64,000 bases of DNA from Nemertoderma westbladi (Eukaryota > Animalia > Xenacoelomorpha), in assembly GCA_032718475.1 (NCBI GenBank), contig JAUCBJ010006028.1, positions 1 through 64,000 on the forward strand, written 5' to 3'. The notes beneath the pieces were generated by a model. That model was not told the origin of the DNA, ran no database searches, and saw only the letters and a list, made by a program, of their open reading frames with translations. This document shows, piece after piece, positions 219 through 63,914 of the stretch (position 1 is the first letter of the stretch; each line of letters begins with the position of its first letter). The position numbers and the translations under genes are program-made.

Positions 219-441
219 TATTAAATTTAACGAAAAGTGTCGTGTTACCGTGTAAGTCACACACCTAGAACTGCGAATATACTATTAAATTTAACGAAAA
301 GTGTCGTGTTACCGTGTAAGTCACACACCTAGAATATTAAATTTAACGAAAAGTATCGTGTTACCGTGTTAGTCACACACCTAGAATAATAAATTTAACG
401 AAAAGTGTCGTGTTACCGTGTAAGTCACACACCTAGAACTG
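219..441. repeat. 52-bp tandem repeat, 4 copies
   Basis: Unit tattaaatttaacgaaaagtgtcgtgttaccgtgtaagtcacacacctagaa; a short spacer follows copy 1. Confidence 0.93.
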
Positions 442-700: not shown

Positions 701-885
701 AGTCTGAAGATGAGAGTTCGGTGGATGTGACAGGGGCCCAGCGGGTTAGACGTTCAAGACGACGTTCTAGAGTTAGAAAACCGAGCGTAAAGAGCACCCC
801 GGAACGACGGCCAGTCGGTTCTACTGTGTCGGAGGAACCCAAAGGTCCGACTCAAACCGGAGATGTTGAGACAGACGAGATTCAG
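701..885 (+). CDS. DMXL: DMXL exon a (low-conservation linker, SEDESSVDV...TDEIQ)
   Basis: cccttatag acceptor, CAG|gtttt donor, open frame, phase 0 into the next exon. The peptide itself is not recognisable. Confidence 0.7.
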
Positions 886-3800
886 GTTTTGATTTATATA
901 ATATTACTTCGTCGGTAAAAAGGCAAAGGGGTATATTCAATGAAAATAATTGTCCAGGAGACACTAAAAACCTTACAGCGTATTTAATAGCTTAATATCA
1001 TTTTTTATCTCATAGTACTCGACATGCTGGGCGATGATCGATTTAAGTTGGTGGCAATGGCATCATCAAATGACCCTTTGCCTTTAGTAATTTATCTTTA
1101 AGTACAGTAAATTTCCTTTGTAAACATGATTTTACACAAATGCCCTTTTACACCCGAAAAATTGCCGAAAATATATTTTATATATTGCTATATTTTTTCA
1201 CAAAAATCGCATCAGACTTTAACATTTCGCCAGAAAGTGGAGGACATTGTCAGGAGGCCGCATGCATAACCGCCCCTTTTTCTTTCTACCGACGACTTAA
1301 TAATATTTACTTATTATTACTTGAAGGAAAATGTTTTCCCCGTGAGCTCTACCGAGTTGTATAAAATATGCCAGACGTTAGTGATGGGGTATAATTATTA
1401 TACATCTCCCTAGCCAGGGCGAGAAATGTCCTATTTTATCAGTTTTTCATATTTTTAGGTTTGCTATTTATTTTTTTGTTTTTACCCTCCAGTGTTTGTT
1501 ACGGTCGATGATGCCTCTGCTGCTAATGGAATGGCAGTCTACCCCAGATATGCTGTACGCTATACATTCGCTAGATGGCTCCTTGTTAGTCTGGTTGCTG
1601 GATTGGTTAGATGAATGGCCTCCGAACACACACAGACAAGCGCAGGTACCTAATTTAATATTCTGTAAATCTTTGATGTTGTCCATATCTTTGAGTATTC
1701 GAAGGTGTTGTGTACAATACACATAACAGCGGGTTATGTTTGCTCCACCATCTCCTGGGACTAACTCATTATCCCTCACCCACAACTCGGAGAAAGGAAG
1801 TATGTAGAGTGGTCACTGATCAGAAATCCCGGTTTGTGATTGAAGGTCCCGAGTTCGATCCGCGCCCAGATCAGTTTATTTTCCCATCACTGGTCACCCT
1901 GCGGTATAAGAACCTGGGTTCCGCTGTGGGGGTAGAGTTCAGTATTAAACTTTGGGAAAAAGACTACCCCCCCCCCCCTCCCCACTTATATGTAACTGCC
2001 AAGAGAGAAGAGTGGTTCACGCCCACCGTTCTTTTGTTTACAACAATTAATAGTAGACGTACTTAGCCTTTATTTCATATATTTACTATCACAATGTTGC
2101 ATCGGTTTTAGGTCTCGTTCTCGTCTCGAATACCTCTAGCTTTCCCTGCTGGTGACGCCATCTCGTTATCACCTAATATATACCTATACCGCAATAACCT
2201 AAGTTTAGACATTAAGAAACTGGAATCTTGGAAAGCCCTGGAGCGACGAGGTAGATTCGCTACATCTAGCCCGGGCGCCAGTCTGGGTGAATTCGCCCCC
2301 GATATTCATCTGGTCACCAAACACGGTGACGGCAGTATCAACCAATGGCAGGTTAGTAAAGGTCGACATTATCTGAATGTTTATAACTGCGGTTCGGTTG
2401 TCAATTTATTTTATCTTATTCTGTATTAAATTATCTAAGAGATAATTTTACTCCCCATAGGGTATAGAAGGGAAACTGAAAGTAAAACCTTAAGCTGATA
2501 AATTTGATACATTCATTATTATAGGAGATGCATTTTGGTAAGATAAATGGTTCAACACATTTGCTCCAATCTCTGCTATTTTTAGATGACATTTGCTCCC
2601 GATTCCGGCTACGCTACCGTACTGTCAGTGTGTCACAACGCGCGGTGCAGCGGACACCGCTTCCATATGCTAGACGTGGTGGCCCACGCGGTTCTCCCGC
2701 TGCTACTCACATCGTCGCATCACAACCAACCCAGACGACATCGGAGCAACTCGACGCTCCATCACGTGTCCGAAGACGCGCGGGAAGATGGAATCCCGAT
2801 CCCGGAAACTCATTCAATAGGTAAAAACACGAGCGTAGCGAGGGGATTTACATAAATAAACAAGGCAAAATTATACATACGTGTACACTTTATATTTTAG
2901 GAAAGGTAGAAATTTAATCACTTTTCTTCAACGAATAATTTAGCTAATTCTTAAATTGTTACTTTTTATCTCGAATATATTAAATATACGTGTGAAAATT
3001 TTTTCCAAGGAAAAAGTAATTGATTTTACTTTTTCCCCTCGTAATAGGAGGTAAATAATATATTTTTTGTAGAATTATTCTTAGATTCTATTACATTGTA
3101 TCGAAGGAGAAAAGGTTGGAATTAGAATAGGAAATAGAATTAGAAGAAATAATAATTATTGAAATAGAAAGGTTTACTTACAACCTTTGCCAGGAAAATA
3201 AAAAAATAGAAAATTCGAAGCACATAAAAGTTAAATACAATTTTAATTTCTTTGCGACGCGCACCAAACTAGAACCCAATGGCCATTATATATTTTTTAA
3301 TGTAGTTGATCAGCTCCTTACTAGATCATAAATAATCCACAAAAAGCTTCAGTGAGTTAAATTGTATTAATTAATTCGAATCGCTGCATCTTTCTATGGA
3401 AGACACGTCGCAAATATTGCTGTTCAATTTATTTAATAACACCAAATTACTTAATATTTTGTATTAAATAATCAAAAGCATGAAAATGATGTATGGCAAG
3501 GGAAAAACGTAGTTTAGTGAGAATCGTTATTCCTCTCAAGGCGCTCTGCAAATAAAATAGCCCGAAGATAGTGAAAAAAGTTCAACTTTTATTTGTTATT
3601 TTATCATGTTATGTTATTTTGTTATGTTATTTTGTTATTGTTATGTTATTTTATGCCTCAGGTGTTGAAAGAACTGTGGTACATTTGGACGACACCAGTG
3701 AAACCTTGGATATGACCCGCAGTGAGGCTTCCTTTGGCAGTATGACTACAATGGGACCCAGTGGGACTGTAGGTGGACCCAATAGTGAACTGATTCTCTG

Positions 3801-6800
3801 GAGAGTCGATTCCGTTGGGCCTCTCAGTAAAAGCGGTGAGTTTCTCACCAAGTTTATCCCCAAAGAGTTTATCCATCAGCATCCGCCGCAATAACTACCC
3901 ATTGTACCTTAAAATCGTGTAGCGCCGGGCCTTCTATTGATCTATTGGTTTTAGGTAAGGTATTGTGGATTTAATTCGCCGTCACTCACCCCACAACAAT
4001 TAATTTATAATTAATTAACATCAAGGAACCAGGCATACGGGGTTACAGTGGTTTCTACAAGACTGTATAATAGTTATTCTTTGAGGCACAATTGCCATTT
4101 CTGGCAGAGCACGGAATAACTTGGCGTGGCATGTTTTTCTAGAAAATTTTGTTATGTCACGTTTTTTGATGTTTGTTGTTTATGACCTGTATCCAGCTGA
4201 TGTTTATTGTTTATGGTCTGTATCCAGCTGATGTTTGTTGTTTATGGTCTGTATCCAGCTGATGTTTGTTGTTTATGGTCTGTATCCAGCTGATGTTTGT
4301 TGTTTATGACCTGTATCCAGCTGATGTTTGTTGTTTATGGTCTGTATCCAGCTGATGTTTGTTGTTTATGACCTGTATCCAGCTGATGTTTGTTGTTTAT
4401 GGTCTGTATCCAGCTGATGTTTGTTGTTTATGACCTGTATCCAGCTGATGTTTGTTGTTTATGGTCTGTATCCAGCTGATGTTTGTTGTTTATGGTCTGT
4501 ATCCAGCTGATGTTTGTTGTTTATGGTCTGTATCCAGCTGATGTTTGTTGTTTATGGTCTGTATCCAGCTGATGTTTGTTGTTTATGGTCTGTATCCAGC
4601 TGATGTTTGTTGTTTATGGTCTGTATCCAGCTGATGTTTGTTGTTTATGACCTGTATCCAGCTGATGTTTGTTGTTTATGGTCTGTATCCAGCTGATGTT
4701 TGTTGTTTATGGTCTGTATCCAGCTGATGTTTGTTGTTTATGGTCTGTATCCAGCTGATGTTTGTTGTTTATGGTCTGTATACAGCTGATGTTTGTTGTT
4801 TGTGGTCTGTATCCAGCTGATGTTTGTTGTTTATGGTCTGTATCCAGCTGATGTTTGTTGTTTATGGTCTGTATCCAGCTGATGTTTGTTGTTTATGATC
4901 TGTATCCAGCTGATGTTTGTTGTTTATGGTCTGTATCCAGCTGATGTTTGTTGTTTATGGTCTGTATACAGCTGATGTTTGTTGTTTATGGTCTGTATCC
5001 AGCTAATGTTTGTTGTTTATGGTCTGTATCCAGCTGATGTTTGTTGTTTATGGTCTGTATACAGCTGATGTTTGTTGTTTATGGTCTGTATCCAGCTGAT
5101 GTTTATTGTTTATGACCTGTATCCAGCTGATGTTTGTTGTTTATGGTCTGTATCCAGCTGATGTTTATTGTTTATGACCTGTATCCAGCTGATGTTTGTT
5201 GTTTATGGTCTGTATCCAGCTGATGTTTGTTGTTTATGGTCTGTATCCAGCTGATGTTTATTGTTTATGACCTGTATCCAGCTGATGTTTGTTGTTTATG
5301 GTCTGTATCCAGCTGATGTTTGTTGTTTATGACCTGTATCCAGCTGATGTTTGTTGTTCATGGTCTGTATCCAGCTGATGTTTGTTGTTTATGGTCTGTA
5401 TCTAGCTGATGTTTGTTGTTTATGACCTGTATCCAGCTGATGTTTGTTGTTTATGGTCTGTATCCAGCTGATGTTTGTTGTTTATGATCTGTATCCAGCT
5501 GATGTTTGTTGTTTATGGTCTGTATCCAGCTGATGTTTGTTGTTTATGGTCTGTATACAGCTGATGTTTGTTGTTTATGGTCTGTATCCAGCTAATGTTT
5601 GTTGTTTATGGTCTGTATCCAGCTGATGTTTGTTGTTTATGGTCTGTATACAGCTGATGTTTGTTGTTTATGGTCTGTATCCAGCTGATGTTTGTTGTTT
5701 ATGACCTGTATCCAGCTGATGTTTGTTGTTTATGGTCTGTATCCAGCTGATGTTTGTTGTTTATGGTCTGTATCCAGCTGATGTTTGTTGTTTATGGTCT
5801 GTATCCAGCTGATGTTTGTTGTTTATGGTCTGTATACAGCTGATGTTTGTTGTTTGTGGTCTGTATCCAGCTGATGTTTGTTGTTTATGGTCTGTATCCA
5901 GCTGATGTTTGTTGTTTATGGTCTGTATCCAGCTGATGTTTGTTGTTTATGATCTGTATCCAGCTGATGTTTGTTGTTTATGGTCTGTATCCAGCTGATG
6001 TTTGTTGTTTATGGTCTGTATACAGCTGATGTTTGTTGTTTATGGTCTGTATCCAGCTAATGTTTGTTGTTTATGGTCTGTATCCAGCTGATGTTTGTTG
6101 TTTATGGTCTGTATACAGCTGATGTTTGTTGTTTATGGTCTGTATCCAGCTGATGTTTATTGTTTATGACCTGTATCCAGCTGATGTTTGTTGTTTATGG
6201 TCTGTATCCAGCTGATGTATATTGTTTATGACCTGTATCCAGCTGATGTTTGTTGTTTATGGTCTGTATCCAGCTGATGTTTATTGTTTATGACCTGTAT
6301 CCAGCTGATGTTTGTTGTTTATGGTCTGTATCCAGCTGATGTTTGTTGTTTATGGTCTGTATCCAGCTGATGTTTATTGTTTATGACCTGTATCCAGCTG
6401 ATGTTTGTTGTTTATGGTCTGTATCCAGCTGATGTTTGTTGTTTATGACCTGTATCCAGCTGATGTTTGTTGTTTATGGTCTGTATCCAGCTGATGTTTG
6501 TTGTTTATGGTCTGTATCTAGCTGATGTTTGTTGTTTATGACCTGTATCCAGCTGATGTTTGTTGTTTATGGTCTGTATACAGCTGATGTTTGTTGTTTA
6601 TGACCTGTATCCAGCTGATGTTTGTTGTTTATGGTCTGTATCCAGCTCATGTTTGTTGTTTATGATCTGTATCCAGCTGATGTTTGTTGTTTATGGTCTG
6701 TATACAGCTGATGTTTGTTGTTTATGGTCTGTATCCAGCTGATATTTGTTGTTTATGACCTGTATCCAGCTGATGTTTGTTGTTTATGGTCTGTATCCAG

Positions 6801-9800
6801 CTGATGTTTGTTGTTTGTGGTCCGTATCCAGCTGATGTTTGTTGTTTATGACCTGTATCCAGCTGATGTTTGTTGTTTATGGTCTGTATCCAGCTGATGT
6901 TTGTTGTTTATGGTCTGTATCTAGCTGATGTTTGTTGTTTATGGTCTGTATCCAGCTGATGTTTGTTGTTTATGGTCTGTATCCAGCGGATGTTTATTGT
7001 TTATGACCTGTATCCAGCTGATGTTTGTTGTTTATGGTCTGTATCCAGCTGATGTTTATTGTTTATGACCTGTATCCAGCTGATGTTTGTTGTTTATGGT
7101 CTGTATCCAGCTGATGTTTATTGTTTATGACCTGTATCCAGCTGATGTTTGTTGTTTATGGTCTGTATCCAGCTGATGTTTGTTGTTTATGGTCTGTATC
7201 CAGCTGATGTTTGTTGTTTATGGTCTGTATCCAGCTGATGTTTATTGTTTATGACCTGTATCCAGCTGATGTTTGTTGTTTATGGTCTGTATCCAGCTGA
7301 TGTTTGTTGTTTGTGGTCCGTATCCAGCTGATGTTTGTTGTTTATGACCTGTATCCAGCTGATGTTTGTTGTTTATGGTCTGTATCCAGCTGATGTTTGT
7401 TGTTTATGGTCTGTATCCAGCTGATGTTTGTTGTTTATGGTCTGTATCCAGCTGATGTTTGTTGTTTATGGTCTGTATCCAGCTGATGTTTGTTGTTTAT
7501 GGTCTGTATCCAGCTGATGTTTGTTGTTTATGGTCTGTATCCAGCTGATGTTTATTGTTTATGACCTGTATCCAGCTGATGTTTGTTGTTTATGGTCTGT
7601 ATCCAGCTGATGTTTGTTGTTTATGACCTGTATCCAGCTGATGTTTGTTGTTTATGGTCTGTATCCAGCTGATGTTTGTTGTTTATGGTCTGTATCTAGC
7701 TGATGTTTGTTGTTTATGACCTGTATCCAGCTGATGTTTGTTGTTTATGGTCTGTATACAGCTGATGTTTATTGTTTATGACCTGTATCCAGCTGATGTT
7801 TGTTGTTTATGGTCTGTATACAGCTGATGTTTGTTGTTTATGGTCTGTATCCAGCTGATGTTTGTTGTTTATGACCTGTATCCAGCTGATGTTTGTTGTT
7901 TATGGTCTGTATCCAGCTGATGTTTGTTGTTTATGGTCTGTATCCAGCTGATGTTTGTTGTTTATGGTCTGTATACAGCTGATGTTTGTTGTTTATGGTC
8001 TGTATCCAGCTGATGTTTGTTGTTTATGGTCTGTATCCAGCTGATGTTTGTTGTTTATGATCTGTATCCAGCTGATGTTTGTTGTTTATGGTCTGTATCC
8101 AGCTGATGTTTGTTGTTTATGGTCTGTATACAGCTGATGTTTGTTGTTTATGGTCTGTATCCAGCTAATGTTTGTTGTTTATGGTCTGTATCCAGCTGAT
8201 GTTTGTTGTTTATGGTCTGTATACAGCTGATGTTTGTTGTTTATGATCTGTATCCAGCTGATGTTTGTTGTTTATGGTCTGTATCCAGCTGATGTTTATT
8301 GTTTATGACCTGTATCCAGCTGATGTTTGTTGTTTATGGTCTGTATACAGCTGATGTTTGTTGTTTATGGTCTGTATCCAGCTGATGTTTGTTGTTTATG
8401 ACCTGTATCCAGCTGATGTTTGTTGTTTATGGTCTGTATCCAGCTGATGTTTGTTGTTTATGGTCTGTATCCAGCTGATGTTTGTTGTTTATGGTCTGTA
8501 TACAGCTGATGTTTGTTGTTTATGGTCTGTATACAGCTGATGTTTGTTGTTTATGGTCTGTATCCAGCTGATGTTTGTTGTTTATGATCTGTATCCAGCT
8601 GATGTTTGTTGTTTATGGTCTGTATCCAGCTGATGTTTGTTGTTTATGGTCTGTATCCAGCTGATGTTTGTTGTTTATGGTCTGTATCCAGCTGATGTTT
8701 GTTGTTTATGGTCTGTATCCAGCTGATGTTTGTTGTTTATGGTCTGTATCCAGCTGATGTTTATTGTTTATGACCTGTATCCAGCTGATGTTTGTTGTTT
8801 ATGGTCTGTATCCAGCTGATGTTTGTTGTTTGTGGTCTGTGTCCAGCTGATGTTTGTTGTTTATGACCTGTATCCAGCTGATGTTTGTTGTTTATGGTCT
8901 GTATCCAGCTGATGTTTGTTGTTTATGGTCTGTATCCAGCTGATGTTTGTTGTTTATGGTCTGTATCCAGCTGATGTTTGTTGTTTATGGTCTGTATCCA
9001 GCTGATGTTTGTTGTTTATGGTCTGTATCCAGCTGATGTTTGTTGTTTATGATCTGTATCCAGCTGATGTTTGTTGTTTATGGTCTGTATCCAGCTGATG
9101 TTTGTTGTTTATGGTCTGTATACAGCTGATGTTTGTTGTTTATGGTCTGTATCCAGCTAATGTTTGTTGTTTATGGTCTGTATCCAGCTGATGTTTGTTG
9201 TTTATGGTCTGTATACAGCTGATGTTTGTTGTTTATGATCTGTATCCAGCTGATGTTTGTTGTTTATGGTCTGTATCCAGCTGATTTTATTGTTTATGAC
9301 CTGTATCCAGCTGATGTTTGTTGTTTATGGTCTGTATACAGCTGATGTTTGTTGTTTATGGTCTGTATCCAGCTGATGTTTGTTGTTTATGACCTGTATC
9401 CAGCTGATGTTTGTTGTTTATGGTCTGTATCCAGCTGATGTTTGTTGTTTATGGTCTGTATCCAGCTGATGTTTGTTGTTTATGGTCTGTATACAGCTGA
9501 TGTTTGTTGTTTATGGTCTGTATACAGCTGATGTTTGTTGTTTATGGTCTGTATCCAGCTGATGTTTGTTGTTTATGATCTGTATCCAGCTGATGTTTGT
9601 TGTTTATGGTCTGTATCCAGCTGATGTTTATTGTTTATGACCTGTATCCAGCTGATGTTTGTTGTTTATGGTCTGTATCCAGCTGATGTTTATTGTTTAT
9701 GACCTGTATCCAGCTGATGTTTGTTGTTTATGGTCTGTATCCAGCTGATGTTTGTTGTTTATGGTCTGTATCCAGCTGATGTTTGTTGTTTATGGTCTGT

Positions 9801-54800: not shown

Positions 54801-57800
54801 TAGTTTCGCAAACCGATAGTGAGTGAGAATAGTTCCTCTGCCGATAATGAGTGAGAATAGTTCTTCGACCGATAGTGAGTGAGAATAGTTCCTCAAACCG
54901 ATAGTGAGTGAGAATAGTTCCTCAACCCTATAGTGAGTGAGAATAGATCCTCAAACCGATAGTGAGTGAGAATAGTTCTTCAAACCGATAGTGAGTGAGA
55001 ATAGTTCCTCAACCGATAGTGAGTGAGAATAGTTCCTCAAACCGATAGTGAGTGAGATTAGTTATTCAAGCCGATAGTGAGTGAGAATAGTTCCTCAACC
55101 GATAGTGAGTGAGAATAGTTCCTCAAACCGATAGTGAGTGATAATAGTTCCTCAAACCGATAGTGAGTGAGAATAGTTCCTCAACCGATAGTGAGTGAGA
55201 ATAGTTTCTCAACCGATAGTGAGTGAGAATAGTTCCTCTGCCGATAATGAGTGAGAATAGTTTCTCAAACCGATAGTGAGTGAGAATAGTTTCTCAACCG
55301 ATAGTGAGTGACAATAGTTTCTCAACCGATAGTGAGTGACAATAGTTCATCAACCGATAGTGAGTGAGAATAATTCCTCTGCCGATAATGGGTGAGAATA
55401 GTTCCTCGAACCGATAGTGAGTGCGAATAGTTCCTCAACCGATAATGAGTGACAATAGTTCCTCTGCCGATAATGGGTGAGAATAGTTCCTCAAACCGAT
55501 AGTGAATGAGAATAGTTCATCAACCGATAATGAGTGAGAATAGTTCCTATGTCGATAATGGGTGAGAATAGTTCCTCAAACCGATAGTGAGTGAGAATAG
55601 TTCCTCTGCCGATAATGGGTGAGAATAGTTCCTCAAACCGATAGTGAGTGAGAATAGTTCCTCTGCCGATAATGGGTGAGAATAGTTCCTCAAACCGATA
55701 GTGAGTGAGAATAGTTCCTCAACCGATAGTGAGTGAGAATAGTTCCTCAAACCGATAGTGAGTGAGAATAGTTCCTCAACGCGATAGTGAGTGAGAATAG
55801 ATCCTCAAACCGATAGTGAGTGAGAATAGTTCTTCAAACCGATAGTGAGTGAGAATAGTTCATCAACCGATAGTGAGTGAGAATAGTTCTTCAAACCGAT
55901 AGTGAGTGAGAATAGTTCCTCTGCCGATAATGGGTGAGAATAGTTCCTCAAACCGATAGTGAGTGAGAATAGTTCCTCTGCCGATAATGGGTGAGAATAG
56001 TTCCTCAAACCGATAGTGAGTGAGAATAGTTCCTCAACCGATAATGAGTGACAATAGTTCCTCTGCCGATAGTGAGTGAGAATAGTTCCTCTGCCGATAG
56101 TGAGTGAGAATAGTTCCTCAACCGATAGTGAGTGAGAATAGTTCCTCAAACCGATAGTGAGTGAGAATAGTTCCTCAAACCGATAGTGAGTGAGAATAGT
56201 TCCTCTGCCGATAATGGGTGAGAATAGTTCCTCAAACCGATAGTGAGTGAGAATAGTTCCTCAACCGATAATGAGTGACAATAGTTCCTCTGCCGATAGT
56301 GAGTGAGAATAGTTCCTCTGCCGATAATGGGTGAGAATAGTTCCTCAAACCGATAGTGAGTGAGAATAGTTCCTCGGCCGATAATGGGTGAGAATAGTTC
56401 CTCGGCCGATAATGGGTGAGAATAGTTCCTCAAACCGATAGTGAGTGAGAATAGTTCCTCAACCGATAATGAGTGACAATAGTTCCTCTACCGATAATGG
56501 GTGAGAATAGTTCCTCAAACCTATAGTGAGTGAGAATAGATCCTCAAACCGATAGTGAGTGAGAATAGTTCTTCAAACCGATAGTGAGTGAGAATAGTTC
56601 CTCAACCGATAGTGAGTGAGAATAGTTCCTCAAACCGATAGTGAGTGAGATTAGTTATTCAAGCCGATAGTGAGTGAGAATAGTTCCTCAACCGATAGTG
56701 AGTGAGAATAGTTCCTCAAACCGATAGTGAGTGATAATAGTTCCTCAAACCGATAGTGAGTGAGAATAGTTCCTCAACCGATAGTGAGTGAGAATAGTTT
56801 CTCAACCGATAGTGAGTGAGAATAGTTCCTCTGCCGATAATGAGTGAGAATAGTTTCTCAAACCGATAGTGAGTGAGAATAGTTTCTCAACCGATAGTGA
56901 GTGACAATAGTTTCTCAACCGATAGTGAGTGACAATAGTTCATCAACCGATAGTGAGTGAGAATAATTCCTCTGCCGATAATGGGTGAGAATAGTTCCTC
57001 GAACCGATAGTGAGTGCGAATAGTTCCTCAACCGATAATGAGTGACAATAGTTCCTCTGCCGATAATGGGTGAGAATAGTTCCTCAAACCGATAGTGAAT
57101 GAGAATAGTTCATCAACCGATAATGAGTGAGAATAGTTCCTATGTCGATAATGGGTGAGAATAGTTCCTCAAACCGATAGTGAGTGAGAATAGTTCCTCT
57201 GCCGATAATGGGTGAGAATAGTTCCTCAAACCGATAGTGAGTGAGAATAGTTCCTCTGCCGATAATGGGTGAGAATAGTTCCTCAAACCGATAGTGAGTG
57301 AGAATAGTTCCTCAACCGATAGTGAGTGAGAATAGTTCCTCAAACCGATAGTGAGTGAGAATAGTTCCTCAACGCGATAGTGAGTGAGAATAGATCCTCA
57401 AACCGATAGTGAGTGAGAATAGTTCTTCAAACCGATAGTGAGTGAGAATAGTTCATCAACCGATAGTGAGTGAGAATAGTTCTTCAAACCGATAGTGAGT
57501 GAGAATAGTTCCTCTGCCGATAATGGGTGAGAATAGTTCCTCAAACCGATAGTGAGTGAGAATAGTTCCTCTGCCGATAATGGGTGAGAATAGTTCCTCA
57601 AACCGATAGTGAGTGAGAATAGTTCCTCAACCGATAATGAGTGACAATAGTTCCTCTGCCGATAGTGAGTGAGAATAGTTCCTCTGCCGATAGTGAGTGA
57701 GAATAGTTCCTCAACCGATAGTGAGTGAGAATAGTTCCTCAAACCGATAGTGAGTGAGAATAGTTCCTCAAACCGATAGTGAGTGAGAATAGTTCCTCTG

Positions 57801-60800
57801 CCGATAATGGGTGAGAATAGTTCCTCAAACCGATAGTGAGTGAGAATAGTTCCTCAACCGATAATGAGTGACAATAGTTCCTCTGCCGATAGTGAGTGAG
57901 AATAGTTCCTCTGCCGATAATGGGTGAGAATAGTTCCTCAAACCGATAGTGAGTGAGAATAGTTCCTCGGCCGATAATGGGTGAGAATAGTTCCTCGGCC
58001 GATAATGGGTGAGAATAGTTCCTCAAACCGATAGTGAGTGAGAATAGTTCCTCAACCGATAATGAGTGACAATAGTTCCTCTACCGATAATGGGTGAGAA
58101 TAGTTCCTCAAACCGATAGTGAGTGAGAATAGTTCCTCGGCCGATAATGGGTGAGAATAGTTCCTCAAACCGATAGTGAGTGAGAATAGTTCCTCAACCG
58201 ATAATGAGTGACAATAGTTCCTCTGCCGATAATGGGTGAGAATAGTTCCTCAAACCGATAGTGAGTGAGAATAGTTTCTGAACCGATAGTGGGTGAGAAT
58301 AGTTTCTGAACCGATAGTGGGTGTGAAGATCATTTATAGTTCCACTTTTTATAATTATTAGTTCCAAGATTATCAGTTAAAAGAGTTTTATTAATAATTT
58401 ATATATTAAACATCATCCTTCCTTACCAGGCGCGTTTGCTCACTTACGTTCTCACACACACCCACCTACCGGGTCTAACTGGTTTAGACCAAATTCACCT
58501 TCTAGCGTTGGCCGATGTGATTGGTTCCTTCCAATCAGACGGCTTGGGGACTTCGATTCAGCCCAACAGGCAGGACAGTAGGAATACCGGTAAGGAATAA
58601 AATCGTACTGGTGCGGATGATTCCTGTATATGGTTAACCCTTAAACTGGTGACGATTTTTCTAAAACGCCATCTCCATTTGGTGAAAACTCACATATGAG
58701 TTACAGTAAAACCGTTCTGACTTGGTTTCAACTCACATATGAGTTTCGGCTATACTTTTGTTTATCAGCTGTCAGGAAGGAAGCATTGACTTATATGTCG
58801 ACGACAATAGGCCCTGTATTGGGCCGTTGATAAGCTTTATAACAGTAGTTGTATCGGCTTCACACGATCAGTATAGGCTAAACAAGACGGTAGTAAAGTG
58901 TGGGAAAATTGTAAAATTTCAACTAATGGCCGTTTCATTATTATAAGTTTATTATAGGAAGGGATCTAGGGGTCTTAACCTCGAATGATAAGTTTATTAC
59001 CCGCTGGATAATGTTGCACATTATGTACGGTACAGTACATCCTCTTCTGTCGACGAAGTTGCGTAATATTTCCATTTTCGAATAAAAATATATTTTTTAT
59101 TCTTAGCAGTATTTTTTATTCTTAGCAGTATTTTTTACTCTTAGCAGTATTTTTTACTCTTAGCAGTATTTTTTATTCTTAGCAGTATTTCAAAGAAACC
59201 AATGGCAATCATATAATAAAGCCTAATTGGTGATCTAATGCTGCAATATTGAGTTAGGCATGGCTTCCGTCGCACTACGGATGGAGCCAGTTCCTATTTA
59301 GAGTGGCCAAGGACTTTGCTGATTAAAGATATATTGGCATAGTAGTATTACACTCTGACAGCTTTATAAAATACAATTGGTTTTATGGTACGTGTTTGTA
59401 TTTATAGTAGAAGTTATAAGGCCAACAATAACAACTATAATTAGTCCAGACTGTAACGGGTATGCTGGAATTCCTTGCAGGTGGTGAGAGTTTAGATGAA
59501 TGCGGCGTTAAGTTCCTTATAGCAATGCGACTGCATTCCTGTCTGAGTCGTTCATTGCCTCCTTACGAACGCGCTAAGTTGCGTCAGCGGGGTCTGGATT
59601 CCAGCTACTTTGCTTGGGCCTTCCATTCCGAGACTCAGGCCGCTTTAATTGAACTCATTCCAGGTTGGAATTCCTCGTATAATGCACCATGGGTGTTGCG
59701 TCTAATTTATTTACACAAAAAATGGAACAAGCGGCTCTTCATATTTATTTAAAAAAAAGCCTGGTGTTTTAATGAACTCACAAAATGATTGATTTGGCGA
59801 AATTCACTATTACATGACCTTTTAACATTTTAATTTTTTGTTACCGACTACTTAATTTTTACATATAAACTTTAGGCGTAAAGAAAGGCAGTCCAACATG
59901 GTCCGAACTCAAAAGTCTAGGGGTCGGGTGGTGGCTGCGTTCTATAACGTTACTCAAGCGGTTAGTGGAGCAACTAGCTAAGTCGGCTTTCCAATCCCGA
60001 CAAGATCCGCTAGATGCCGCATTCTACTACCTGGCCATGGGGAAGAAATCGTTGGTGACCGCCTTGTTTCGGTCAGTTCGCGATTCCAAAATGACGAATT
60101 TCTTCCAAAATGATTTCACCCAGGACAGGTAAAAGTCAATTTAATTAATAAAAATCTGTCACTTAAAAAAGCTATGTTTTATAACGGAAAAGGGGGCGTT
60201 CATAAAGTATGTCACGCACTAGGGGGGGGAGGGGGGGCGGGTTAGAGCTTGCAGACAGAGGGGGGAGGGGGTGTCGACTTTTGTGACGGTCACGGCGATG
60301 TTCTATGCTTTAATGTTAGCTTGGCTTTGACATTCACACTTGTGTAGAAGAGTGGGTAACTTTAAGGAAAACAATAAACTCAATAACATTAAGTATAATC
60401 GATAAATTGAGTAGGACATAGAAGCCATTGACTCCAACACTGTAATACCTGTTAGTAATATAGAATAAGAACACTTGACTTGCCCGTAGGAAAATGTAGA
60501 TATAGTGATTGAATTGATATTGTATTTTGGCATAACAAACATTGTGTATTATTACCAAAATATTTTTTGTCGAGGCGGGGCGGTTTCGACAAAACGGGGC
60601 GGGTGATTTCACAGTTCTGTTTCATTGTTTAACTTTATATCAGATTGGTTGCCGAGGATTAAATAATAATGCCACTTTTTCAAGAGTTTTGGTAATGTAA
60701 ATGTCGGTGCTTTTGGTAAAATATAAAACTCATTATTGGTTGCTATTGTGTATCTCTAGATGGCGTAAAGCTGCACTGAAGAACGCCTACGCGTTGTTAG

Positions 60801-61456
60801 GGAAACAACGTTTCGAACAGGCGGCTGGATTCTTTCTACTCTGTGACCATCTGGACGACGCCCTTGAGGTCTGTATTAACAGACTACACGACCCCCAATT
60901 GGCTATCATTATCAGTCGATTACAGGAGGACTCTGTGGAACTCACCTTGCATAATCGTCAGTTAGTATCAGTTTAGCGATGATATCTACTGATTCTACTT
61001 AAAGACTGTATTTAATCATTATAGTTACAATTATTTTCATGATCACAATATGATCAGCAAATCTTAACTCTCATTGGTTCATGTTCAATTGGATTGTGTC
61101 TTTGGTTATAAAATGGGAAGTACTAATGTGAGTAAATTAGATAAATTTGAAAGTAATGCAATTTTGTATTTTTTTAGGATACTTTACGAGACACTGAGTG
61201 ACCAAGACCCGTTTCTACGGAGTATGAGTCATTGGTTACTAGGGCAATACCCTGAGTCCTTGGAGACTCTTTTAGTCCAATCATCGTTTACAGACAGTAA
61301 CAGCCATTCTGTTCCCGCCTCTTCTGTTAACCAAATCCCCCAGACATTCTCTACATCTCCGAGATCATCATCAACTCCTTCTTCTGTTTTTAATTTTTAT
61401 AATCATCTGCGATGTCATCCGTTGTTGCTACGGAGACAGACACATTCCTTATCCGC
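701..61456 (+). CDS. DMXL: DmX-like / Rabconnectin-3 alpha WD40-RAV1 protein (V-ATPase assembly scaffold), partial: 23 internal coding exons, both ends outside the window
   Basis: Manual splicing of 23 GT-AG exons gives one open frame with matching phases. Motifs characteristic of DMXL1/2 occur in the expected order: DMLYAIHSLDGSLLVW..WLDE, SGHRFH..VLPLLLTSSHHN, SELILWRVD.VGPLS.SGGVSELARI, AGHLSSSSIYPAC, VYECESTGGS.W.LED, LDWVSMEDGSHLLTV, LPQYHPKQL, LDECG.KFL, RWRKAALKNAYALLGKQRFE. Confidence 0.96.
1493..1645 (+). CDS. DMXL: DMXL exon b (CLLRSMMPLLLMEWQSTPDMLYAIHSLDGSLLVWLLDWLDEWPPNTHRQAQ)
   Basis: ccctccag acceptor, CAG|gtacc donor, conserved DGSLLVW..WLDE motif. Confidence 0.9.
1800..1935 (+). 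mobile_element. Possible tRNA-derived SINE fragment
   Basis: aaggtcccgagttcgatcc resembles a tRNA T-arm/Pol III B-box; no complete cloverleaf; boundaries approximate. Confidence 0.4.
2112..2351 (+). CDS. DMXL: DMXL exon c (VSFSSRIPLAFPAGDA...TKHGDGSINQWQ)
   Basis: ttttag acceptor, CAG|gttagt donor, 80 codons, conserved motifs; absent from the ORF track. Confidence 0.93.
2586..2820 (+). CDS. DMXL: DMXL exon d (MTFAPDSG...SGHRFHMLDVVAHAVLPLLLTSSHHN...)
   Basis: ttttag acceptor, TAG|gtaaaa donor (phase 1), conserved GHRFH/LPLLLT.SHHN. Confidence 0.93.
3662..3835 (+). CDS. DMXL: DMXL exon e (...NSELILWRVDSVGPLSKS)
   Basis: cctcag acceptor, G|gtgagt donor. It joins in phase to 43128 to give the conserved VGPLSKSGGVSELARI. 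Confidence 0.93.
4167..40568. repeat. 31-bp satellite, about 1170 copies (36.4 kb), intronic
   Basis: Unit tgatgtttgttgtttatg(gt/ac)ctgtatccagc repeated head to tail without interruption. Confidence 0.99.
40638..42290 (-). CDS. Nested intronless 550-aa protein with degenerate leucine-rich repeats (FBXL/PRAME/ZYG11-like architecture suspected)
   Basis: Uninterrupted 1653-nt non-repetitive ORF with ATG and TAA. It has recurring LRR-like motifs (CHKLIVLHI, LERLQELGIQWC, FPNLSELEL, LPQVTALTL, FPNLMSLEL, LPSLTKLSI, CKKLEHFQV). The family assignment is inference. Confidence 0.8.
   Translation of the reverse strand: MMDKIPIVILNNNCRLLSLKEVGVVNVIKALVRGIVNAESRRWECHAIGYQHNDHCSVLCEWLDKLPKKLLIELRKFILHAFVMAFKQLQLKYKELPRTGVPQQEPLLGDLMDTYRDLYLDQYFGSVHLIIDDEFYEEFHPDNLKVIKIILRWLPRISNEIRSLIVLYSYRQRYIGILNTVFTSEFPLLTTIKVSHIEDAALSGIVNNCHKLIVLHIPKSNITIDTALKLKRLERLQELGIQWCCGLTHANIISLHRSLPHVEILTSESANLLRESFHSKEHFDELIKGHKINLSLRFLYIHHPGPQLIIADYHIQDVDRSGDQLKRIELECDDPLDLQLLDQFTKFPNLSELELIWIPTEFPNFISNTTVRNARLPQVTALTLAVQHIAYEPIPVRFDEIGLIFPNLMSLELEDGLLIENPTDYVISSVRSLHITTDNFRNLMTTLRSLPSLTKLSIDLASPLYKRSIEKKMVDDIKGVVDSGRFDDLIAFTLYFYDPGANTRFAYAYGLSTGIREALANAVWKRCKKLEHFQVSDNLSTYCTVRDMTE
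43128..43339 (+). CDS. DMXL: DMXL exon f (GGVSELARIQSPRSTAFSHIAWVPTILP...LYQAVVDARSLL)
   Basis: cctatag acceptor, CAG|gtaatt donor, conserved motifs. Confidence 0.94.
43463..43591 (+). CDS. DMXL: DMXL exon g (EEQRQK...FNVISSQSTGRPGCIIELGSLDQSSQ)
   Basis: ctaat branch-like motif plus tttag acceptor, CAG|gttaga donor, conserved QST.RPGCIIEL. Confidence 0.92.
43905..44060 (+). mobile_element. Possible tRNA-derived SINE fragment
   Basis: ggaggtcgtgggttcgatccccac T-arm/B-box with stem gtggg..cccac; no full cloverleaf; boundaries approximate. Confidence 0.45.
44180..45594 (+). repeat. 43-bp minisatellite, about 33 copies, made of a splice acceptor plus exon start
   Basis: Unit gactgggacagagtccagctaatgtacgtgtttgtttgtttag; the last copy runs into exon h. 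Confidence 0.97.
45566..45794 (+). CDS. DMXL: DMXL exon h (DWDRVQLMYVFPEQF...FFVVVLESDTIHMWFL...); its 5' end is the last unit of the 43-bp array
   Basis: tttag acceptor at 45564-45565, phase 0; T|gttagt donor, phase 1. An alternative phase-1 donor C|gtaatt lies after 45764. Confidence 0.88.
46115..46290 (+). CDS. DMXL: DMXL exon i (TKKLITQS...LHVNTKK)
   Basis: ttacag acceptor, AAG|gtataa donor, phases 1 and 0 match the neighbours. Confidence 0.82.
46629..46818 (+). CDS. DMXL: DMXL exon j (VYCKALPLP...AGHLSSSSIYPACTAPYLIATSCTDSYLRFWTC)
   Basis: tcacag acceptor, GAG|gttggt donor, highly conserved motif. Confidence 0.93.
46928..47178 (+). CDS. DMXL: DMXL exon k (...VSVYECESTGGSKWVLEDILKPGSPI)
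   Basis: cgcag acceptor, ATT|gtaagt donor, conserved CESTGGS. Confidence 0.92.
47444..47644 (+). CDS. DMXL: DMXL exon l (linker, PATPPIQPV...PPFMYK)
   Basis: C-rich tract plus cag acceptor, AAG|gtgagt donor, 67 open codons, phase 0/0. Confidence 0.82.
47810..48022 (+). CDS. DMXL: DMXL exon m (...LQLDWVSMEDGSHLLTVAVGSRV...ALMRQ)
   Basis: ttttag acceptor, CAG|gtttgt donor, conserved LDWVS.EDGSH.LTV. Confidence 0.92.
48161..49045 (+). repeat. 69-bp minisatellite, about 13 copies, made of a splice acceptor plus exon start
   Basis: Unit ccgagtgtagctgctacacttctgtccccgtagcctccctctgttgtagccgtctctgtatccttttag; the last copy runs into exon n. Confidence 0.97.
49017..49248 (+). CDS. DMXL: DMXL exon n (PSVAATLLSPTPVEI...RWMQLREIDLQSADGLP...LENEMHIYTQW); its 5' end is the last unit of the 69-bp array
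   Basis: ccttttag acceptor at 49015-49016, phase 0; TTG|gttagt donor; conserved DGLP/EMHIY.QW. Confidence 0.87.
49369..49503 (+). CDS. DMXL: DMXL exon o (linker; alternative in-phase acceptor would start at 49345)
   Basis: ctaac..tttatag acceptor, TTG|gtatgt donor, phase 1/1. Confidence 0.72.
49838..50005 (+). CDS. DMXL: DMXL exon p (GLFEEARLVAPVLPQYHPKQLQELLSSGKMKRVKAILAHLV)
   Basis: tttag acceptor, TAG|gttagt donor, Rav1p_C-region motif LPQYHP. Confidence 0.95.
50190..50620. repeat. 32-bp minisatellite, about 13.5 copies, ending at the exon q acceptor
   Basis: Unit cactttatttcattataaacattacgagtctg. Confidence 0.96.
50622..50889 (+). CDS. DMXL: DMXL exon q (...LDYVEITSIPPLPLHALLAVE...)
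   Basis: ttcattag acceptor, GA|gtaagc donor (phase 2), conserved DY.EI.SIPPLPL.ALL. Confidence 0.92.
51116..51248 (+). CDS. DMXL: DMXL exon r (TTPDNYSSLF...SPSQFGPAQ)
   Basis: tattag acceptor, CAG|gtgaga donor, phases match. Confidence 0.9.
51249..58325. repeat. 28/29-bp satellite, about 250 copies (7.1 kb), starting at the exon r donor
   Basis: Unit gtgagaatagttcctca(a)accgatagtga with variants; higher-order duplications are present. Confidence 0.98.
58430..58589 (+). CDS. DMXL: DMXL exon s (ARLLTYVLTHTHLPGLTGLDQIHLLALADVI...)
   Basis: cttaccag acceptor, CCG|gtaagg donor, conserved LPGL..LDQ..LLALAD. Confidence 0.94.
59091..59190. repeat. 19-bp tandem repeat, 5 copies
   Basis: Unit tatttttta(t/c)tcttagcag. 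Confidence 0.93.
59481..59663 (+). CDS. DMXL: DMXL exon t (GGESLDECGVKFLIAMRLH...FAWAFHSETQ)
   Basis: cttgcag acceptor, CAG|gttgga donor, conserved motifs. Confidence 0.94.
59876..60128 (+). CDS. DMXL: DMXL exon u (PTWSELKSLGVGWWLRS...DPLDAAFYYLAMGKK...FFQNDFTQD)
   Basis: tttag acceptor, AG|gtaaaa donor, Rav1p_C core motifs. Confidence 0.95.
60191..60290 (+). mobile_element. Possible end fragment of a non-autonomous DNA transposon (MITE-like)
   Basis: ggggcgttcataaagtatgtcacgcactagggggggaggggg resembles termini of common invertebrate MITE-like repeats as I recall them; no matching opposite end found. Confidence 0.3.
60760..60960 (+). CDS. DMXL: DMXL exon v (RWRKAALKNAYALLGKQRFEQAAGFFLL...)
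   Basis: ctctag acceptor, CA|gttagt donor, hallmark Rav1p_C motif. Confidence 0.95.
61178..61456 (+). CDS. DMXL: DMXL exon w (DPFLRSMSHWLLGQYPESLETLL...VFNFYNHLRCHPLLLRR)
   Basis: ttttag acceptor, GC|gttagt donor, conserved DPFLRSM and FNFYN.LR.HPLL. Confidence 0.92.
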
Positions 61457-61656
61457 GTTAGTAATTAATATTTAATATTAATTAACTGTTTCGGGATGGG
61501 GGGGGGGGGGGGGGGGGTATGTATCCAGGGGAATTGAGAAGCTAGTCCTGTCACTCTATGTTGTATTAATTTAAGTAATACTGCACCTATAATTACCGAT
61601 AAAAGTGTCATATTTTGATGACACGACGACCCCCTCTTATTTTTCTACAAGACGTT

Positions 61657-63914
61657 ATATGACCTTGATTATATTGCAGCTGGTAGGTATACTGTCCTTT
61701 ATTCTATTGCAGCTGGTAGGTATACTGCCCTTCATTATATTGCAGCTGGCACAAATGTCCTTGATTCTATTGCAGCTGGCATATGACCTTGATTCTGGCA
61801 TACATGACCATGATTATATTGCAGCTGGCACAAATGTCATTGGTTCTATTGCAGCTGGCATATGCCTTTGATAATATTGCAGCTGGTATACGTCATGTCC
61901 TTGATTCTATTGCAGCTGGCATACATGGCCTTTATTATATTGCAGCTGGTAGGTATACTGTCCTTGATTCTATTGCAGCTGGCATGCATGTCCTTTATTC
62001 TATTGCAGCTGGCACACATGACATTGATTCTATTGCAGCTGGCATACATGGCCTTTATTATATTGCAGCTGGTAGGTATACTGGCCTTTATTCTATTGCA
62101 GCTGGCACAAATGTCGTTGATTCTATTGCAGCTGGTAGGTTAACTGTCCTTTATTCTATTGCAGCTGGCACAAATGACATTGATTCTATTGCAGCTGATA
62201 TACATGACCTTGATTCTATTGCAGCTGATATACGTCATGTCCTTTATTCTATTGCAGCTGGTAGGTATACTGCCCTTGATTCTATTGCAGCTGATATACA
62301 TGACCTTGATTCTATTGCAGCTGGCATATGACCTTGATTCTGGCATACATGACCAGGATTATATTGCAGCTGGCACAAATGTCATTGGTTCTATTGCAGC
62401 TGGCATATGCCTTTGATAATATTGCAGCTGATATACGTCATGTCCTTGATTCTATTGCAGCTGGCATATGACCTTGATTCTGGCATACATGACCAGGATT
62501 ATATTGCAGCTGGCACAAATGTCATTGGTTCTATTGCAGCTGGCATATGCCTTTGATAATATTGCAGCTGATATACGTCATGTCCTTGATTCTATTGCAG
62601 CTGGCATATGCCTTTGATAATATTGCAGCTGATATACGTCATGTCCTTGATTCTATTGCAGCTGGCATACATGGCCTTTATTATATTGCAGCTGGTAGGT
62701 ATACTGGCCTTTATTCTATTGCAGCTGGCACAAATGTCGTTGATTCTATTGCAGCTGGTAGGTTAACTGTCCTTTATTCTATTGCAGCTGGCACAAATGA
62801 CATTGATTCTATTGCAGCTGATATACATGACCTTGATTCTATTGCAGCTGGCATATGACCTTGATTCTGGCATACATGACCATGATTATATTGCAGCTGG
62901 CACAAATGTCATTGGTTCTATTGCAGCTGGCATATGTCTTTGATAATATTGCAGCTGGTATACGTCATGTCCTTTATTCTATTGCAGCTGGCACACATGT
63001 CCTTGATTCTATTGCAGCTGGCATACATGTCCTTTATTCTATTGCAGCTGGTAGGTATACTGTCCTTTATTCTATTGCAGCTGGCACAAATGTCCTTGAT
63101 TCTATTGCAGCTGGCATAATATGACCTTGATTCTGGCATACATGACCATGATTATATTGCAGCTGGCACAAAATGTCATTGGTTCTATTGCAGCTGGCAT
63201 ATGTCTGTGATAATATTGCAGCTGGTATACGTCATGTCCTTGATTCTATTACAGCTGGCATGCATGTCCTTTATTCTATTGCAGCTGGTAGGTAAACTGT
63301 CCTTTATTCTATTGCAGCTGGCACAAATGACATTGATTCTATTACAGCTGATATACATGACCTTGATTCTATTGCAGCTGGCATATGACCTTGATTCTGG
63401 CATACATGACCATGATTATATTGCAGCTGGCATATGTCTGTGATAATATTGCAGCTGGTATACATGACCTTGATTATATTGCAGCTGGTAGGTATACTGT
63501 CCTTTATTCTATTGCAGCTGGTAGGTATACTGTCCTTTATTCTATTGCAGCTGGCACACATGACATTGATTCTATTGCAGCTGGTAGTATACTGTCCTGG
63601 ATTATATTGCAGCTGGCATATGACCTTGATTCTATTACAGCTGGCATACATGGCCTTTATTATATTGCAGCTGGTAGGTATACTGCCCTTGATTCTATTG
63701 CAGCTGGCATGCATGTCCTTTATTCTATTGCAGCTGGCACACATGACATTGATTCTATTGCAGCTGGCATACATGTCCTTTATTATATTGCAGCTGATAG
63801 GTATAATCTCCTTGATTCTATTGCAGCTGGCACAAATGACATTGATTCTATTTCAGCTGGTAGGTATACTGTCATTGATTCTATTTCAGCTGGCATACAT
63901 GTCATTGATTCTAT
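61657..63914. repeat. Variable 28-33-bp minisatellite, roughly 70 units
   Basis: Constant core attctattgcagctgg with several interchangeable linkers (catacatgaccttg, taggtatactgtccttt, cacaaatgacattg). Confidence 0.96.

What the first reader, a model, noticed from the sequence alone, without database searches (positions are those of the whole stretch)
3594..63914. Intronic tandem arrays in one gene are repeatedly built from or anchored on splice signals
Seen: four unrelated arrays end or begin exactly at a functional DMXL splice site (43-bp and 69-bp include acceptor plus exon start, 32-bp forms the pyrimidine tract, 28-bp starts at the donor GT). A small tgtta repeat also abuts the exon e acceptor. 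Three further arrays have units that read as U-rich tract plus YAG on the sense strand (31-bp, 19-bp, 30/33-bp). Established: DMXL/Rabconnectin-3 is conserved, and the frame here is intact. Inference: this lineage either has a mutational process that amplifies splice junctions into satellites, or uses such arrays in splicing, for example by stepwise intron removal or decoy-based regulation. Either way the spliceosome must select one site among tens to more than a thousand near-identical decoys.
Basis: partly seen in the sequence, partly recalled or inferred. Interest (0 to 1): 0.85.

Follow-up and report, generated by a model that had tools for sequence, protein, structure and literature searches.

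The report
Splice-edge "mirage" repeats in DMXL gene
In an animal's DMXL gene four of seven large intron repeats touch a splice site and two are head-to-tail copies of an exon edge; this kind of repeat is already known from lancelets, chickens and human genes, and it is likely a tolerated by-product of DNA duplication rather than a splicing device.

Summary
Partly confirmed; known kind. The window holds an intact 22-exon DMXL/Rav1-family segment (1,461 aa, all GT-AG, no stop); seven arrays fill 76% of it. Four touch a modelled splice site. Only the 43-bp and 69-bp arrays copy a junction (intron end + 29 exon bases), leaving 32 and 12 spare acceptors. The 32-bp array stops inside the AG and has no decoy; the 28-bp array starts at the GT, with weaker decoys. 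The 1,170-copy 31-bp array copies no adjacent site. Every acceptor decoy scored gives a premature stop; AG|GT recursive sites are absent from 5 of 7 arrays. Edge enrichment is modest: 4 of 7 against about 1 expected, P 0.008-0.07 by null. The acceptor look of the three interior arrays is mostly T-richness (Fisher P 0.05-0.30). Raw-data depth supports the 36-kb array; a second sample holds the 31- and 43-bp arrays. No RNA was available. This matches lancelet 'mirages', chicken 'exon stuttering' and human F7-type VNTRs. The scan has noted it before: 13 other notes seen in this genome, 60 in at least 15 genomes. Open lead: the 31-bp unit may derive from the 43-bp unit.

The parts
1493..61456 (+). 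DMXL/Rabconnectin-3-alpha (Rav1 family) gene segment, 22 modelled coding exons, 1,461 aa; gene runs off both ends
   Evidence: tblastn and alignment with unnamed full-length relatives; Pfam Rav1p_C on 4 exons; yeast Rav1, E 2.8e-6; the name DMXL for animal members is recalled
3587..3655 (+). tgtta microsatellite in the pyrimidine tract of the acceptor at 3662; holds no AG
4167..40568 (+). 31-bp satellite, about 1,170 copies, 3.3% mean divergence; 331 bases from the donor, 2,559 from the acceptor: not anchored; possibly derived from the 43-bp unit
   Evidence: depth ratio 1,421 in the probable source run
40641..42290 (-). nested single-exon 550-aa leucine-rich-repeat-like ORF inside the same intron, stop about 70 bases from the array edge
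   Evidence: no Pfam hit; Atlas look-alikes 0.96, uncharacterised/LRR clusters
44165..45598 (+). 43-bp mirage: last 14 intron bases + first 29 bases of the exon at 45566; 33 of 33 TTTAG sites kept, the last is the real acceptor
   Evidence: present in second sample
45566..45764 (+). exon whose start seeds the 43-bp array (DWDRVQLMYVF, conserved in relatives); its 3' end (45764 or 45794) is not fixed
48130..49045 (+). 69-bp mirage: about 40 intron bases + first 29 bases of the exon at 49017; 13 of 13 acceptor sites kept; 12-bp microrepeat at its 5' edge
50190..50620 (+). 32-bp purely intronic array ending on the A of the acceptor AG (exon at 50622); units read AT where the real site reads AG, so no decoy
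51249..58327 (+). 28/29-bp array starting exactly at the donor GT; two GT-type pseudo-donors per unit, all weaker than the real one; one (after 51272) would add 8 residues in frame
59091..59190 (+). 19-bp array, mid-intron, acceptor-like (TAG CAG) but followed by stops; not anchored
61656..63914 (+). 30/33-bp array, not anchored; 14 places read acceptor + CTG + strong donor (3-base pseudo-microexon), 15 AG|GT

Best explanation
These are locally born minisatellites, two of them 'mirage' copies of an exon edge, that likely arose by short tandem duplication, likely grew by unequal exchange, and are likely spliced out with only the copy next to the full exon used. Steps: (1) shown: the 43-bp and 69-bp units are this gene's own intron end plus 29 exon bases, so they were born in place; the 32-bp and 28-bp units are the last and first bases of their introns. 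(2) inferred: seeding by slippage or break repair at short shared words (3-base overlaps fit the 69-bp and 28-bp joints), then growth and homogenisation by unequal crossover or conversion (variant blocks repeat along the arrays). (3) follows from geometry: a duplication across an acceptor always leaves the last copy in front of the whole exon, one across a donor leaves the first; duplications inside exons are purged, so survivors pile up in introns and on their ends, which in this gene are close together. (4) predicted: the real site wins through exon definition and exon enhancers (acceptors) or first-come choice (donor); leaks to neighbouring copies carry premature stops and would be removed by nonsense-mediated decay.
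For: Unit anatomy; intact frame only through the terminal copy, and 0 of 50 (43-bp), 0 of 47 (69-bp), 0 of 1,161 (31-bp), 0 of 10 (19-bp) acceptor-like decoys give an open frame; no AG|GT in 5 of 7 arrays; 3 of 7 large arrays and most small repeats are not anchored, so the gene is repeat-prone everywhere; median array-free intron 234 bases; interior units not clearly more acceptor-like than their own shuffles; arrays real and shared with a second sample; same anatomy published with normal splicing in lancelets (PMC3087553, PMC3902484; passages), first donor used in human F7 (PMC1557585; passages), local origin with over 90% of exon-derived sources at the exon border in chicken (PMC12954441; passages).
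Against: Survivorship alone predicts about 1 of 7 touching arrays, not 4 (P 0.008-0.012), and two edges fall within 1 base of a splice site (P 0.006-0.011, 0.05-0.10 with slack), so an added bias to junctions is plausible. No spare acceptor has decayed (33 of 33, 13 of 13), and 27 of 32-33 units of the 43-bp array carry a branch-point-like CTAAT that the exon copy lacks. For acceptor arrays the choice of the last copy is not trivial: PMC1557585 notes that experiments with duplicated sites gave opposite results, and that two human arrays leak to nearby pseudo-donors. The 31-bp unit may not be local. No RNA tested step 4.
Confidence: 0.68

Rival explanations
1. A junction-directed mutational bias: in this lineage breaks or template switches happen preferentially at exon edges (for example at nucleosome borders or at sites where the polymerase pauses during spliceosome assembly), so arrays are seeded at splice sites more often than survivorship explains. 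Still no function in splicing.
For: 4 of 7 against about 1 expected; two array edges at 0-1 base from a splice site; both junction arrays take exactly 29 exon bases; 13 unreviewed scan notes describe the same in other genes of this genome (leads only).
Against: Significance fades with null choice (P up to 0.07, up to 0.30); one window picked after the fact; no genome to test on; the largest array is not anchored.
Confidence: 0.22
2. The arrays serve splicing: stepwise removal of long introns, or decoys that tune DMXL output through unproductive splicing and decay.
For: Spare acceptors are all intact; 43-bp units hold branch-like CTAAT, U-rich tract, AG and a weak donor 23 bases on; 30/33-bp units hold acceptor + 3 bases + a strong donor at 14 places and 15 AG|GT.
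Against: The two longest arrays, where stepwise removal would matter, hold 0 (31-bp, 36 kb) and 2 (28-bp, 7 kb) AG|GT; intact sites are expected from recent homogenisation (few positions vary at all); the long introns exist only because of the arrays; the 32-bp array has no decoy; the related run X5 shows no cover of the 31-bp or 43-bp edge, though it also fails to cover the exons, so this is not a test.
Confidence: 0.08
3. Assembly artefact: collapsed or inflated repeats from long-read errors.
For: No laid contig spans a whole array; second-sample depth ratios for the 31-bp array disagree between its two runs (71-103 and 385-721).
Against: Probable source run gives depth 45,060 on the array against 31.7 beside it, ratio 1,421 for 1,174 assembled copies (the tool warns that depth is no copy number); an independent sample has contigs breaking at the same edges and joints that go back one 43-bp unit; units carry structured variants.
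Confidence: 0.02

Closest known systems
Amphioxus 'mirage' minisatellites (Adh3, globins BflGb6/BflGb9, troponin C, PGBD5). Seen: matching passages of PMC3087553 and PMC3902484; the Adh3 and troponin C papers only as cited there; supplements not read
   Same: Tandem copies spanning an intron-exon border, AG/GT kept in many units, unit 10-160 bases, several per gene; PGBD5 repeats also include ones that just abut a donor; reported not to disturb splicing.
   Different: More copies here (33, 13; 249 for the donor-abutting array, against 2-7 in the globin and PGBD5 cases); GT/AG-abutting and interior arrays of up to 36 kb in the same gene; normal splicing and length polymorphism not shown here.
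Chicken 'sequence stuttering' (exon and intron stuttering) on dot chromosomes. Seen: passages of PMC12954441
   Same: Each intron has its own locally born array, some from an exon edge (exon part 20-187 bases, 1-44 copies, spans up to 23.5 kb), others purely intronic, side by side in one gene.
   Different: Described there as tied to GC-rich bird chromosomes; this DNA is 38-42% GC and from an invertebrate-type genome (organism not identified).
Human donor-spanning VNTRs: F7 intron 7 (37 bp), IFI6/6-16, CBS, LMNB2, PDGF. Seen: passages of PMC1557585
   Same: Splice donor reiterated into the intron; the most upstream site is used, with leaks to the next two in two genes.
   Different: Those units include exon bases; the 28-bp unit here has no recognisable exon part, and the true mirages here are on the acceptor side.
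Recursive splicing in long introns; intron gain by tandem duplication of AG|GT (both recalled; the second also cited in PMC3087553)
   Same: Long introns with internal splice-like words.
   Different: No AG|GT in 5 of 7 arrays; no intron has both ends inside an array.

Membership tests
Mirage minisatellite | Tandem unit spans a real exon-intron boundary | tested here: met
   Met for the 43-bp and 69-bp arrays (2 of 7). Not met for 32-bp and 28-bp (abut only) nor for 31, 19, 30/33-bp (interior).
Mirage minisatellite | Units keep AG or GT signals as cryptic sites | tested here: met
   33 of 33 and 13 of 13 acceptor sites
Mirage minisatellite | Concerted evolution inside the cluster, odd units at the edges | tested here: met
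   Variant blocks recur in order; degenerate 5' edge units; 71-base last unit in the 69-bp array
Mirage minisatellite | mRNA is spliced normally | not testable with these tools
   No RNA holder listed; only the frame argument
Mirage minisatellite / exon stuttering | Length varies between alleles or individuals | tested here: inconclusive
   31-bp depth ratio 1,421 in sample S1, 71-103 and 385-721 in two runs of S2; contig depth is not copy number
Exon stuttering (chicken) | Direct tandem repeat of 20 or more bases of a coding exon edge in the adjacent intron | tested here: met
   29 exon bases in both the 43-bp and 69-bp units
Exon stuttering (chicken) | GC-rich dot-chromosome context | tested here: not met
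   GC 0.35-0.46 across the window
Recursive splicing | Acceptor directly followed by GT (AG|GT) at intervals in the long intron | tested here: not met
   0 in the 31, 43, 69, 32, 19-bp arrays; 2 in 28-bp; 15 in 30/33-bp with donor scores 3.3-5.3
Recursive splicing | Saw-tooth nascent RNA and intermediate junction reads | not testable with these tools
   No RNA run
Intron gain by tandem duplication | Both ends of the intron lie in array units derived from one exon | tested here: not met
   Each anchored array touches one end only
DMXL/Rav1 family (host gene) | Rav1p_C domain in a protein colinear with about 3,000-aa relatives | tested here: met

The most novel reading that the evidence does not exclude
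This lineage has a genome-wide mutational process aimed at splice junctions, and junction-born repeats can be copied away from their exon: the 36-kb 31-bp satellite would be a trimmed copy of the 43-bp acceptor mirage (28 of 30 aligned bases alike with three gaps, the acceptor AG lost) that moved two exons upstream and amplified about 1,170-fold, for example through a DNA circle. Such a genome would be a natural test bed for how the spliceosome picks the last of dozens of identical acceptors.
Probability: 0.15. Interest if true: 0.6.

Novelty: new member of a known kind. Interest (0 to 1): 0.24.

Why it matters
As it stands it adds a dense invertebrate example to a known but little-studied class (mirages, exon stuttering) and shows that the class is not tied to GC-rich bird chromosomes. 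The part that could matter is testable: an acceptor repeated 33 times with identical signals, where choosing any but the last gives a stop, is a natural experiment on exon definition versus intron definition in a genome whose introns are otherwise short; and a genome-wide excess of such arrays would point to a link between splicing signals and DNA instability.

Tried and rejected
No whole genome is held, so the genome-wide test could not be run. No RNA holder listed: no evidence either way on expression or site use. Run X5 (same species label) covered only dispersed repeats, 2 records and 32, and X6 gave 0 records: no information on array age. Acceptor-likeness of interior units: rejected as beyond composition. 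Recursive splicing: motif absent from 5 of 7 arrays. Hidden coding exons behind the 31-bp and 19-bp arrays: stops follow in the required frame; behind the 30/33-bp array an open stretch exists in one frame but resembles none of 29 relatives printed. The 28-bp unit as a decayed exon-end copy: only 4 bases plus the last one or two match, not claimed. The 32-bp unit as a junction copy: its second half does not match the exon. A shared core word among all units: AGCTG in 5 of 11 units, 38 of 2,000 null sets among GC-rich words but 198 of 2,000 for the best word overall; not claimed. Kinship of 31-bp with 30/33, 69, 32, 28-bp units: not significant. No tRNA gene and no Rfam family in the window. 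Literature: searches found no paper on a genome-wide junction bias in an invertebrate; the library lacks most subscription papers, and supplements were not read.
Full report
Gene. Six-frame translation, tblastn with 16 long relatives and manual choice of borders give 22 coding exons from 1493 to 61456, all bounded by AG and GT, 4,385 bases, 1,461 residues, no stop. The product aligns at 28-50% identity with 10 of 10 long relatives tried (40% over 1,447 residues with P0031), carries Pfam Rav1p_C on 4 of the 10 exon pieces scanned and hits yeast Rav1 in the PDB. The organism was not identified; the nested ORF's Atlas look-alikes are mostly arthropod clusters, a weak hint only. A few borders in unconserved linkers are not fixed (for example the donor at 45765 or 45795).

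Arrays. Tandem Repeats Finder lists seven arrays with units of 19 bases or more and 5 or more copies, plus five small repeats; the seven fill 48,579 of 64,000 bases. Without them the introns are short, median 234 bases. The 43-bp unit is the last 14 bases of an intron plus the first 29 of the exon at 45566, whose residues are conserved in relatives, so the array came from the gene and not the reverse. All 33 acceptor words are kept. The exon part differs from the real exon at one leucine codon: 27 units read CTA, 5 TTG as in the exon, 2 are eroded; CTA makes a branch-point-like CTAAT 25 bases before the next AG. The 69-bp unit is about 40 intron bases plus again 29 exon bases, 13 of 13 acceptors kept. 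The 32-bp array is purely intronic and ends on the A of the AG; its units read AT there. The 28/29-bp array begins at the GT after a conserved exon end and has no convincing exon part. The 31-bp, 19-bp and 30/33-bp arrays lie 331, 290 and about 88-195 bases from the nearest site (the acceptor after the last array is assumed just beyond the window).

Are they real? In the run that may be the source, contig depth is 45,060 on the 31-bp edge and 31.7 beside it, ratio 1,421 against 1,174 assembled copies. A second sample (runs X2, X3, another study) has high depth on the 31-bp and 43-bp edges, single-copy contigs that start at 40536-40538 and 45565, and joints going back by one unit. Its depth ratios for the 31-bp array (71-103 and 385-721) hint at a shorter allele but disagree, and the tool warns against reading depth as copy number.

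More than chance? With seeds placed at random on all positions that leave the exons whole (inside an intron or across one splice site), 0.96-1.06 of the 7 large arrays should contain or abut a site; 4 do (P 0.008-0.012). For all 12 repeats P is 0.05-0.07 (0.01-0.016 if tgtta counts); given each array's host intron, 0.04-0.06. By edge distance, Fisher P is 0.017 (global) and 0.048 (given the intron), and 0.14 and 0.30 when 3 bases of breakpoint slack are allowed; two edges within 1 base have P 0.006-0.011, or 0.05-0.10 with slack. So there is a modest excess in a window that was picked for it.

Decoys. I scored sites with weight matrices from this gene's own 18 acceptors and 21 donors not touching arrays (leave-one-out range 3.4-8.6 and -0.8-11.7; crude). 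Acceptor-like AGs: 50 in the 43-bp array (23 within 0.5 of the real site), 47 in the 69-bp (14), 1,161 in the 31-bp (0; real site scored in-sample), 10 in the 19-bp (0), 0 in the 32-bp and tgtta repeats. Use of any of them gives a premature stop. In the 28-bp array 662 GTs score at most 6.5 against 9.7; 2 keep the frame open, one plausible (after 51272, +8 residues). AG|GT, the mark of recursive sites, is absent from the 31, 43, 69, 32 and 19-bp arrays, occurs twice in the 28-bp and 15 times in the 30/33-bp array; the latter also has acceptor + CTG + strong donor at 14 places.

A lead. The 31-bp unit aligns with the 43-bp unit: 0 of 500 shuffles reached the score in the all-pairs screen, 0-3 of 3,000 under four scorings, 1 of 682 local DNA segments for the commonest unit and 0 of 682 for the best variant pair, 28 of 30 aligned bases alike with three gaps. 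Its leucine codon position reads CTG, between CTA and TTG. Against this: 72 comparisons were screened, both units are T/G-rich, and two other intron stretches (46581, 47285) score as well when made tandem. I put it near one in three.

Mechanism. Shown: local origin of the junction arrays, intact frame through the terminal copy only, stops behind the decoys. Inferred: seeding by slippage or break repair at short shared words, growth by unequal exchange, purging of exon-breaking events, choice of the terminal copy by exon definition and exon sequence (the exon-sequence effect on duplicated sites is recalled from in-vitro work of the 1980s, not read), decay of leaky products. No RNA could be examined.

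Known systems. Tandem copies of exon-intron borders are the lancelet 'mirages', reported not to disturb splicing and to vary in length (PMC3087553, six passages; PMC3902484, four passages). Chicken 'exon and intron stuttering' matches the whole picture of one private array per intron, some from exon edges (PMC12954441, passages). Human F7 and four other genes reiterate a donor, and the first is used, with leaks in two (PMC1557585, passages), which also notes opposite results for experimentally duplicated sites. Both lancelet papers were in my own first listing; the term came to me from earlier scan notes. The scan has noted the same pattern in this genome (13 distinct notes shown) and in 60 findings from at least 15 genomes; these are unchecked leads and I did not test them. 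None lies near this window.

Verdict. Real, partly as described, and of a known kind: two true mirages, two splice-abutting arrays, three interior arrays. The splicing-device reading has little support; a lineage bias towards junctions remains open and needs the genome. Interest 0.24.

Noticed in passing
window 40641-42290 (-): Nested intronless 550-aa ORF on the opposite strand inside the 39-kb intron; no Pfam hit, Atlas look-alikes are uncharacterised/LRR clusters (0.96); present in the second sample with several substitutions and an 11-base gap near its 3' part.
   Followed up: partly
window 43930-44072; similar word at 1840-1870: High-copy dispersed repeat with a tRNA B-box-like word (likely a SINE; label by inspection) just upstream of the 43-bp array; depth in the thousands in all four runs including X5; no tRNA or Rfam call.
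   Followed up: partly
window 47283-47321 and 46471-46510: Short dispersed motifs with many unrelated flanks in other contigs; the first shares a 13-15-base word with a 31-bp variant and is a rival source for that unit.
   Followed up: partly
window 45566-45594 and 49017-49045: Both junction arrays take exactly 29 exon bases; may be coincidence.
   Followed up: no
window 61656-63914: 33-bp variant reads acceptor + CTG + strong donor, like a 3-base microexon, at 14 places; no evidence of use.
   Followed up: partly
window 701-887 and 58958-59030: Possible further exons (open frames with AG/GT borders) not in the model and without support from relatives.
   Followed up: no
window 51249-58327: The 28-bp array holds long internal duplications (offsets 1,593 and 2,358 bases seen from identical reverse-strand frames), a sign of unequal exchange.
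   Followed up: no
window 229-438, 50030-50094, 50973-51041: Further small tandem duplications (52, 21, 14, 36 bp) away from splice sites, showing a general tendency to duplicate.
   Followed up: yes
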